A stretch of 63,081 nt of DNA, filler included, from Collodictyon triciliatum (Eukaryota), in assembly GCA_043381765.1 (NCBI GenBank). It is 9 parts of 9 records of this genome, joined end to end, with 100 filler letters (N's around TTAATTAATTAA, not from the genome) between each part and the next. Parts side by side here need not be neighbours in the genome. Positions count along the whole stretch, not along the records: positions 1 to 8,875 come from JBHJMP010003245.1; 8 more parts are not named here. The stretch is one strand, 5' to 3'. Within the stretch, counting starts at the first letter, position 1. Every line of letters begins with the position of its first letter. This document shows positions 117 through 3,100 of this stretch, piece after piece. A program made the position numbers and the translations under genes. Under the pieces are notes generated by a model. That model had not been told where the DNA came from and did not search any database. It saw only the letters and a list, made by a program, of their open reading frames with translations.

Positions 117-3100
117 GGATAGAATCCTTATCATCTGAATCAGGTATACTTGGAATTTGGAACGTAATCTACATTTTGTGATTACATTAGTTTGCATGCT
201 GATATGATAGTTCCAAATATGAAAAATATCAAGTTTTATGGAGCAATATTCCCTGGCGCGCCTAAATTTTTTATGTTGGCTCATATTATACCTTCACGAA
301 CAGCAGCATATAACAATAAACTGCTAGTCGCTTCCATGTAGTTTGGTACTTGGGTGACAGTGGGTCTTGGTGACCCAGGAGATATAAAGCTGCCAGATTA
401 AGAAAGCAAGAATCAATACCAGTGGTCACACGTCGAAAATAGAAAAATTATTAATACCTGCTAAAAGAAATCCGAGTGAAGGTATATCGTATGTAGACGT
501 TGCTAGTGCAAACACAGTATAGAGGACAAATCTTTGGGAATATCTGTGGAAAATATAGCTGATTGTGGTCAACGTAGACCTACAGAGAAGAAAATTCTCA
601 GACGGCCAGATATGGTTTTCGACTGGTGACCGTAATTGATGGCAATTACTCTGGAAACAATGACAGGAAGACTAGGGATGGAAATGGACATTACAAATCA
701 ACGACTGAATTTACCATCTTTTTCTGTGGTAGCCAGCCAGTTTGGTTGCCTCATTCTCATTTTCTTTATCAGTTACCTGTTCGACGATATAATAGAGAAT
801 CACGTATAAGTTTTCGATTGAAGCTGTCTTTGTTACACTCAGGAGGTCAATCAATACATGCCAGTTTTGAATATATTTTTCTTTTAAAAAAAAGCTCAAG
901 GTATAAAACTTTAAAGATTCAACATACTTCTTTGGAAAATCTTTGCACAATCACAGTGAAGAACAGCACAAAGAAGTCGGCTTAATTCATAATGTAAAAA
1001 AAAAAAAAAAAAATTGAAGCCAGGAAGAAATTTAATAGGAAAAGGAGGTTGGGTGTGTGGGTTACAAATAATCCATCATATGTCTGTATATAGATGTGGA
1101 TATCATTTAAATTAATTTCCCATATTGAATCGAATAAAGGGGAAAAATAATTTAATTTCTCATATCATTACCATATAATTCCAGCTTATTGTCAATCTGA
1201 AGGCCAAGCCATTTTTTCCAATCCTCACTCATGCTGGATCCATAGAACTCGCCATCTAATTTTGTGAAATACGCAATGAGTAATACTTTATCTTGGCCAA
1301 CAGAACAAAGATATACACTATGTGAACAATCTTACCTATCCAAGTTGGTGAGCCCAACAGAATAATATATTGCCAGACCATAACCAATGAATGATAAATA
1401 ACTAGATAGACAGAATCTATAGGTGTTTTTTTTTTTTTTTTTAAAAAAAAAAACCGTAAATATAATGATTCAATATTGCGTAATGCCTCAGGTAATGCAA
1501 AAGTGTCGTATTGTATGAAATAGAATACATTTCTTGATAGTAGATATCGATGATACGATGTAAAACGGAACAATCAGAAATTGGACATATCCGAATACTG
1601 AAAGCTTGATGAATGCACTAACGAGTGACACAATCACGAGCAACTTATACGATGCCAGTATAATATAAATATTTATAATAACACCAAAAACAACAAAAAC
1701 AACAAAAACAAAAACAATAATAATATGTTGATGAAGAAAAATAGTGAGTTTAGTTTCAAGTATTTCAAAATCCATAACTTAAGGAAAGGAAAACGTAAAG
1801 GAGAGGGGAAAAAAATTAGACTATTAAGTTATAAATGTCTCACTTTGAATCGAATAAAGGAAAAAAAAGTTATAAATGTCTCAAACCTCACGAAACATGG
1901 AAAATTCATTCATAAATACTTTGAACATCCACCAAAATGCTAAGTAAAGTGTATATGTTTAATTTTTTTCCCGCCAATATAATCAACGCGATGTTTTTCG
2001 TTATTTTATTATATTATATTATACAAAAGGATTGATTCATCAACCATATTACCAGCAAGATATCCCAGTCTAGCGCGCGGTTTTTCTCCAGCAATAAACA
2101 GCGTACAGCCGGTCGAGCCATCCCCCTGTTTTAATAACCCAAGTTAACAATCGAGTTTCGACATAGAATAAAATTTATATATGTATATTTGTTTCGTAAG
2201 AGAATGACGTTTTGTATCTCATCAGGATTGAGCTCATTCGCCCAAGTATTCGCAGCAGTCTGCAAAGTGGTCAGTATAATCATAACCAAGTGTGGCGTGA
2301 GGGCATCAAGCACATTGGTATACCTGAATGCACGCAAAAAGATAACTAGTTTCAGCTTTCTTCAAAAACATTATCCAATATATGATAGTATATTCTTCCA
2401 CGGAGTTTTTTTTTTTCTATTTGAAAGATTTCTGCTCTATTGACAACTTTTTCAATCCAATCCAGGCAAGGTCTTCGTTCCAATACGATTCGAACAGCTC
2501 CAATTGAAAGAGATATACAACTATGGCAAAAATCTAGTGGATGATTAGGAGCTTGATACTTATTTGAAATATGCGTAATAGTTGTAATTAACGAAAAATA
2601 AGTATTTTTTTGTCATATCACAATCTAACTGATGATATATCGGATGAAAATAGTTACAATTCCATAAAGGGAGGATATGTGATGCAATCGAACGCCTTGA
2701 TGCAACGAAGTAATCAGCACACCAAACAGAAGCAAATATATTCCTCCCAAAACTGATATCTGAATCATTTAAAGAGGTCATTTCAGTTTTTTTTAAATAT
2801 TTTACCAGGCATAGACCAAAAGGAAAATATGACACTTGATAGCATAATTATTAGAGACCGATCTAATAGCAGCAGTAAACAGAGACCCGCGCATGAGCAA
2901 GCCTTCATTGATTATCAAAACGCGCTACACGATATTATGTCGTTCACTTCCAAGGTGGGAGACATTCGCACATTTATGAATTTAATTTATAGCATCGATT
3001 TAAAATTATTGATATGTAAGAATAACAATAACCTTAAAGAAACGAGTCACTTGGTCAATATGGGCTGGTATCTTGACTCTGTCTTCTTCCTGCTGTTATC

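What the first reader, a model, noticed from the sequence alone, without database searches (positions are those of the whole stretch)
1826..1883. Family of ultra-short (22-24 nt) retroposon-like insertions, each with its own target-site duplication (clearest copy)
Seen: CTTTGAATCGAATAAAGGAAAAAA lies between perfect 17-bp direct repeats (1826-1842 and 1867-1883). The same core recurs at 1126, 6107, 26365 and 49337 on three unlinked scaffolds, and four of the five copies have different, locus-specific 12-18-bp duplications. Established: variable-length TSDs of this size with AATAAA and an A-rich 3' end are the signature of target-primed reverse transcription by LINE machinery. Inference: all four bounded inserts are 22-24 nt, whereas random 5' truncation should give a spread of lengths. 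This suggests a defined small-RNA-sized template being retroposed, or a stereotyped arrest or microhomology join at a LINE 3' tip. Four to five copies in about 61 kb of called sequence would imply a very abundant element that repeat finders miss because of its size.
Basis: partly seen in the sequence, partly recalled or inferred. Interest (0 to 1): 0.8.

Follow-up and report, generated by a model that had tools for sequence, protein, structure and literature searches.

The report
LINE tail stubs with truncation hotspot
The tiny insertions are real and very numerous, but they are the last 18-20 bases of an L1-type jumping gene, about half of whose copies stop at almost the same base, an extreme form of the known habit of these elements to be cut short.

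Summary
The 15-base core occurs 2,399 times exactly in the 75-Mb genome (reversed control 0). 162 of 264 sampled copies have a target-site duplication against 3 of 264 in a swapped-flank control, mostly 15-18 bp, at T/A sites.

It is not a separate element. The core is the 3' tip of an L1-clade LINE (endonuclease end, RT, CCHC finger), and lengths run on continuously to more than 1.6 kb. Truncation is far from random, though: 125 of 263 copies start 3-5 bases upstream of the core. The stop rate there is 0.26 per base, against 0.03-0.05 just upstream and 0.005-0.01 further up; much shorter copies are rare.

Stubs and longer copies share tail length, age and junction types, with no excess microhomology. 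A sister LINE (1,029 tips) is also mostly under 55 bases but stops elsewhere. Best reading: early hand-off to second-strand synthesis at a family-specific pause; a trimmed RNA template is not excluded. This scan reported the family before on other pieces of this genome. No described case turned up in seven paper searches.

The parts
1826..1842 (+). Left target-site duplication, 17 bp, preceded by TT (T/A nick site)
   Evidence: target consensus
1843..1866 (+). Insert: last 18 bases of the L1-clade LINE (1843-1860) plus 6 A; blunt 5' join at the hotspot base
   Evidence: same tip ends the long copies L118-L147
1867..1883 (+). Right target-site duplication, identical to the left; ends 3 bases from the intron's GT donor
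1644..1886 (-). Intron of a host gene that holds the insertion (element antisense to the gene)
   Evidence: joint 1643-1887 with CT..AC ends in one contig of run X1, whose RNA status is a guess; the flanking exons keep one open frame
1108..1165 (+). Second stub: 18-bp duplication with 2 mismatches (1108-1125, 1148-1165) around a 22-base insert
49323..49370 (+). Third stub: perfect 12-bp duplication (49323-49334, 49359-49370) around a 24-base insert
26346..26393 (+). Decayed stub, 2 mismatches in the core; duplication weak (13 bp, 2 mismatches)
6086..6136 (+). Copy of a second family that shares the tip but has a different C/T-rich upstream part; no duplication found
25526..25601 (+).
53354..53704 (+). 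5'-truncated ORF2 fragment of the sister LINE, cut off by the contig end
   Evidence: zf-RVT in the longer copy L368

Best explanation
The stubs are ordinary products of one L1-clade LINE's own target-primed reverse transcription that end very early. Shown: ORF2p-type targeting of T/A sites, a 15-18-bp duplication, a tail of about 7 bases, and identity with the LINE's last bases. Inferred: the endonuclease nicks the top strand about 17 bases from the first nick at or before the start of cDNA synthesis, so the second-strand primer is ready from the outset. The enzyme copies the tail and 18-19 bases, pauses at a template-defined point (most likely the 5' edge of the 3'-tip segment that ORF2p or another protein holds), and in about half of events hands over to second-strand synthesis by a homology-independent jump. 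Complexes that pass this point stop at a steeply falling rate. Early hand-off is general in this organism; the preferred base is family-specific.
For: Tip continuous with RT/CCHC ORF in long copies; endonuclease C-terminal end aligns with human ORF2p. Duplications in 162 of 264 copies vs 3 of 264 control at score 11 or more; 122 of 162 are 15-18 bp; T before the site in 124 of 161, A after it in 149 of 161. Stop rate per base 0.26 at -3..-5, 0.033 at -6..-12, 0.048 at -13..-23, about 0.01 at -24..-100, 0.005 at -101..-250. Only 85 genome-wide hits lack the T at core base 5, and of the first 20 only 5 are clear truncations. Stubs and longer copies agree in duplication decay (2.2% vs 2.3%), extra bases (24 of 85 vs 11 of 36, p=0.83) and tail length (about 7), so one process makes both. 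The 5' end varies less (SD 1.2) than the tail (SD 1.8). Sister LINE: 43 of 47 bounded copies are 52 bases or shorter and 8 of 47 stop at 42-43 bases, but only 6 of 47 are 21 bases or shorter. The shared tip in a second family (53 exact copies) suggests a cis-acting binding site. [quoted passage not shown]
Against: No pause or protein footprint was measured. The obvious structural cause fails: the tip hairpin has a minimum free energy of 0 to -0.3 kcal/mol and folds no better than shuffles. Junction types do not separate an enzyme pause from a template that simply ends there. 5' extent and tail length are weakly anti-correlated (rho -0.29, p=0.006, n=87; -0.20, p=0.10 for templated bases only), so a length ruler may contribute. 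The peak has a shoulder on the short side: 51 of 263 copies match only 0-2 bases upstream, a mix of true shorter copies, mutated ones and about 8 of the second family. Selection and assembly gaps inflate the share of short copies by an unknown amount.
Confidence: 0.55

Rival explanations
1. Trimmed template: LINE RNA is cut or degraded 5'-to-3' up to the segment that ORF2p protects, leaving a roughly 18-base-plus-tail fragment with a defined 5' end. The RT runs off its end, adds 0-2 untemplated bases and jumps to the target's top strand.
For: Sharp, site-defined end; no microhomology excess and 24 of 85 junctions with extra bases, often T or G, as expected of a run-off join; tip shared by two families.
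Against: Longer copies show the same junction types, so they too would have to be decay fragments; the sister LINE has several weaker stops rather than one footprint; no RNA evidence was obtainable (one search gave contigs only).
Confidence: 0.25
2. Ordinary random 5' truncation, filtered by selection against long insertions in a compact, intron-rich genome and by loss of long copies in a fragmented assembly.
For: Continuous tail of lengths to more than 1.6 kb; 14,576 contigs, with several long copies at contig ends; both LINEs are skewed short.
Against: Such a filter falls smoothly with length and should favour still shorter copies, but copies starting at core base 6 are an estimated 30-65 genome-wide against several hundred at the peak base. 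The rate drops about eightfold within a few bases, and the sister LINE in the same genome peaks elsewhere (Fisher p=9e-14 for copies of 21 bases or fewer).
Confidence: 0.13
3. An independent micro-SINE or small RNA (about 25 bases, from its own locus or from existing stubs) that is retroposed in trans.
For: Uniform size in the small-RNA range; one of 162 bounded copies (L098) carries 18 non-LINE bases at its 5' end.
Against: The core matches the LINE's tip base for base; no room for a promoter; no Rfam match for the 3' region; same tail length and age as longer LINE copies; re-mobilised stubs should carry flanks often, and almost none do.
Confidence: 0.06

Closest known systems
5'-truncated copies of L1-clade (APE-endonuclease, poly(A)) LINEs, human LINE-1 as reference
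   Same: T/A nick site, 7-20-bp duplications, AATAAA next to an A tail, ORF2 with endonuclease, RT and CCHC finger (PMC7617806 and PMC4859970, passages).
   Different: Median sampled copy is 19 bases without tail and about half start within 3 bases; tails are short (110 of 135 are 5-9 bases); duplications are narrowly 15-18 bp; no microhomology excess.
Clustered 5' truncation of human AluYa5/Yb8 (PMC4666360, abstract and passages)
   Same: Non-random truncation points in otherwise standard insertions, attributed to ORF2p pausing at stem-loops or protein-binding sites; similarly low microhomology (15% with 2 or more bases).
   Different: There 16% of copies are truncated, over windows tens of bases wide, in a non-autonomous RNA. 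Here about half of all copies of an autonomous LINE stop within 3 bases, 18-20 bases from the 3' end, with no stable hairpin.
ZfL2-2 truncation shaped by host end-joining (PMC2666801, passages)
   Same: Host repair can shorten LINE insertions; a mix of extra bases and direct joins at 5' ends. Offers a way for two families in one host to be short.
   Different: L2 clade; about 50% microhomology reported; no single-base hotspot described in the passages read.
SINEs that share a 3' tail with a partner LINE (recalled, no call)
   Same: A short LINE-derived 3' segment amplified to high copy number; a second family here shares the tip.
   Different: The stubs have no promoter-bearing head and grade into the LINE itself.

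Membership tests
L1-clade LINE (parent element) | Non-LTR reverse transcriptase in ORF2 | tested here: met
   RVT_1 E=9e-12 and 1e-10; best solved match human LINE-1 ORF2p E=3e-21, R2 proteins far weaker
L1-clade LINE (parent element) | N-terminal APE-type endonuclease | tested here: inconclusive
   Only its C-terminal end was retrieved (L476): it aligns with human ORF2p from residue 177, including the SDH motif, but Pfam gave no endonuclease hit on this fragment; many of the top homologs carry PF03372
L1-clade LINE (parent element) | C-terminal CCHC zinc finger | tested here: met
   zf-RVT E=1.6e-7; sister LINE 4.7e-8
L1-clade LINE (parent element) | Clade placement by RT phylogeny; ORF1 and a full-length copy | not tested
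   No tree built; no full-length or intact copy retrieved; placement rests on best hits
Target-primed retrocopy | Locus-specific duplication, A tail and T/A target | tested here: met
Target-primed retrocopy | Empty pre-insertion allele | tested here: inconclusive
   No joint skipping the insert in four runs with patchy contig cover
Ordinary random 5' truncation | Smooth spread of 5' ends | tested here: not met
   125 of 263 within 3 bases; rate 5-8 times that of the next 18 bases
Microhomology-mediated 5' joining | Excess of shared bases at the 5' junction | tested here: not met
   28 of 61 vs 28.6 expected; 2 or more bases 11 vs 9.1, p=0.29
SINE | Own promoter-bearing head distinct from the LINE | tested here: not met
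   Stubs contain only LINE tip bases plus a few extra; no Rfam match in the 3' region
Small-RNA retrocopy | A discrete RNA with that 5' end exists | not testable with these tools
   Only assembled contigs were laid; they cannot show RNA ends

The most novel reading that the evidence does not exclude
This LINE has an intrinsic, base-precise checkpoint 18-19 bases into its template (or a processed 3'-tip RNA with a defined 5' end) that turns about half of all retrotransposition events into harmless 25-base stubs. It would be an abortive-initiation step for target-primed reverse transcription, or a host defence that trims the RNA to the protein's footprint, recorded in over a thousand genomic copies.
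Probability: 0.4. Interest if true: 0.72.

Novelty: new variant of a known kind. Interest (0 to 1): 0.5.

Why it matters
Why LINE copies are cut short at the 5' end is still unsettled; current models name premature second-strand synthesis, RNA structure or host repair. A family in which half of the events end within three bases, beside a sister family in the same host with different stops, makes the question testable by swapping 3' tips between templates. It also shows that short-repeat-blind annotation can miss thousands of insertions: at least one stub of either family per 22 kb here (3,428 exact tips in 75 Mb). The element class and the copying mechanism themselves are well known.

Tried and rejected
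Hairpin as the cause: the tip can be drawn as a 5-pair stem whose base is the hotspot, but it folds at 0 to -0.3 kcal/mol, z 0.73, and the last 104 bases give z -0.10; not support.

Microhomology: at chance level in stubs; slightly above in longer copies but not significant (14 of 25 vs 11.2).

Artefact of conditioning on the core: a pattern lacking the first core bases gave 2,427 hits, of whose first 100 about 14 were new by comparing the two lists by eye; a pattern for starts at core base 6 gave 85 (control 3). Shorter copies exist but are uncommon.

Motif-free scan of about 0.62 Mb of fetched DNA for duplications around A-tailed inserts: 88 hits; 75 exact core, 2 core-like, 5 core copies read on the other strand, 3 sister-LINE stubs, 1 shorter tip, 1 more core copy on the other strand with a 13-bp call, 1 unrelated. 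No pure-A insert was found. The DNA was chosen around cores, so this is not an unbiased census.

Empty sites and expression: four runs laid on 1030-2300 showed no skip of the insert; cover was patchy, so this says nothing about polymorphism. High summed depth over the tip in X1 comes from many contigs that hold other copies and is not evidence of a small RNA. One contig of X4 covers the left junction without differences but does not bridge the insert.

Ten-base periodicity of stops: suggested by a trough at -8..-12 and by sister-LINE clusters, too few copies to test; not claimed.

Parent of the second tip-sharing family: an upstream motif had 9 hits but no DNA could be cut out; unresolved.

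Literature: seven answered full-text searches (searches are eight calls, of which one search returned nothing) found no description of such stubs; the library lacks most subscription papers and no supplements were read.

Full report
Observation. The window is a chain of contigs joined by N-padded spacers from a 75.4-Mb eukaryotic assembly of 14,576 contigs. The feature is as described: a 24-base insert at 1843-1866 between identical 17-bp repeats. Of the four other copies, 49337 and 1126 have convincing duplications, 26365 a weak one and 6107 none. The 15-base core has 1,202 + 1,197 exact matches in the genome and none when read backwards. One contig of run X1 (RNA status a guess) shows spliced joints that place the insertion inside a minus-strand intron, 1644-1886, three bases from the donor.

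The parent. Walking upstream from the core, 557 copies extend at least 12 bases further, and some run into a reading frame. A 611-base query found at least 40 long copies at 89-92% identity (only 40 of 1,307 candidates were scored); the 30 fetched end at or near the same tip. Their frames carry RVT_1 and zf-RVT domains. A further copy reaches the end of the endonuclease and aligns with human LINE-1 ORF2p at E=3e-21, including the SDH motif, although Pfam does not call the endonuclease on this fragment. Homologs are LINE ORF2 proteins, many with PF03372. No full-length or intact copy was retrieved.

Sample. I gathered 264 exact-core copies: the first 100 matches by contig order, two sets chosen by a dinucleotide 70 bases downstream (67 and 92 hits) and incidental neighbours; loci picked for being long were left out. 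The sample favours young copies. Three copies share flanks and may be one event. Extents of long copies are lower bounds, limited by the stretch fetched or the contig end. A duplication scoring 11 or more was found in 162 of 264, against 3 of 264 when right flanks were swapped. 122 of 162 are 15-18 bp; the site is T/A; the insert mode is 25-26 bases.

Length distribution. Among 263 copies with enough upstream sequence (one dropped), the match to the LINE ends 0-2 bases upstream of the core in 51, 3-5 in 125, 6-12 in 18, 13-23 in 29, 24-100 in 21 and beyond 100 in 19. Per base at risk that is 0.07, 0.26, 0.033, 0.048, about 0.01 and 0.005. Chance matches extend a true end by a base about a third of the time, so the real mode is at -3 and -4. 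The peak is not just the edge of my search: only 85 genome-wide hits have a base other than T before the last 10 core bases (control 3), and by eye 5 of the first 20 are clear truncations, 3 are unclear and 12 are substitutions in longer copies. That suggests some 30-65 copies at that position against several hundred at the peak base; this estimate is rough. So the distribution is a sharp mode with a short-side shoulder and a long continuous tail.

Junctions. Among stubs with 13-21-bp duplications, 24 of 85 have extra bases; of the other 61, 28 share at least one base with the target (28.6 expected) and 11 share two or more (9.1 expected). Longer copies are similar (11 of 36 with extra bases; 14 of 25 sharing, 11.2 expected). 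Duplication decay is 2.2% and 2.3%, so the classes are of the same age. Tails average about 7 bases in every length class, and extra G bases replace A bases rather than add to them. The 5' end is tighter than the tail (SD 1.2 vs 1.8), which points to a site on the template, but the two are weakly anti-correlated, so cDNA length may also count.

Internal controls. A sister LINE, whose ORF2 fragment lies at 53354-53704, has 1,029 exact tips (control 0). Of 62 sampled, 47 have duplications against 0 in the control. 43 of 47 are 52 bases or shorter, with clusters at 21-24, 33-36 and 42-43 bases, but only 6 are 21 or shorter. One such stub lies in the window at 25526-25601. Extreme truncation is thus shared, and the dominant stop is family-specific. 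A third, rarer family (53 exact copies) shares the first family's tip behind a different upstream sequence; its parent was not found.

Mechanism. [quoted passage not shown] Inference: here that switch happens very early and most often at one template position, probably the edge of a protein-held tip. I give this 0.55. A template trimmed to that edge predicts the same genomic record (0.25). Selection on random truncation cannot make a peak with rarer shorter copies or different peaks in two families, but surely inflates the short share (0.13). An independent micro-SINE has almost no support (0.06). The tip hairpin is too weak to cite as the cause.

Comparison and novelty. The stubs work like, and are, 5'-truncated L1-clade insertions. 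Clustered truncation has a precedent in Alu, where 16% of young copies are truncated near stem-loops and protein-binding sites (PMC4666360, abstract and passages), and host end-joining shortens ZfL2-2 insertions (PMC2666801, passages). A review states that no sequence consensus for L1 truncation was known (PMC4859970, passages). Eight full-text searches showed no report of a LINE with half of its copies reduced to an 18-20-base tip; I saw only listings for most hits, the library is incomplete and no supplements were read. Earlier agents of this scan reached the same reading on other pieces of this genome; these notes are not independent evidence and my reading was fixed before I saw them. Verdict: real, a new variant of a known kind, interest 0.5.

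Noticed in passing
window 25526-25601 and 53354-53704; G000 loci L368, L397-L446: A sister L1-clade LINE with 1,029 exact 3' tips, also mostly reduced to stubs under 55 bases, with its own clustered stops.
   Followed up: yes
window 6086-6136; L337-L366: A family with a C/T-rich upstream part that shares the last 16 or so bases with the main LINE; all copies seen are short; could be a third LINE or a tail-sharing SINE.
   Followed up: partly
L433, L446, L445: Sister-LINE stubs inserted into the AATAAAG tip of main-family stubs: the tip is itself a T/A target, so stubs nest. L177 and L274 show main-family copies in tandem.
   Followed up: no
L098 (G000:C160): A stub with a perfect 16-bp duplication and 18 non-LINE bases at its 5' end; template jump or re-mobilised stub with flank.
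   Followed up: no
sample tails: Extra G bases after the core replace A bases so that the tail stays near 7 bases; several tails show GA or A-run repeats suggestive of slippage at priming.
   Followed up: partly
L044/L092 (G000:C139): A 600-base LINE copy begins directly after what looks like a tRNA gene (by eye); no duplication was checked.
   Followed up: no
L373, L385, L480: Fragments of the two LINE families joined or adjacent in one locus, possibly nested insertions or template switches.
   Followed up: no
window 41631-44129 (-), 56605-60342 (+), 49937-51118 (+): Long uninterrupted frames (832-aa WD40 protein, a 1,245-aa WD40-like frame by eye, a 393-aa NHL protein) in an otherwise intron-rich genome; contig GC ranges from 0.33 to 0.54.
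   Followed up: partly
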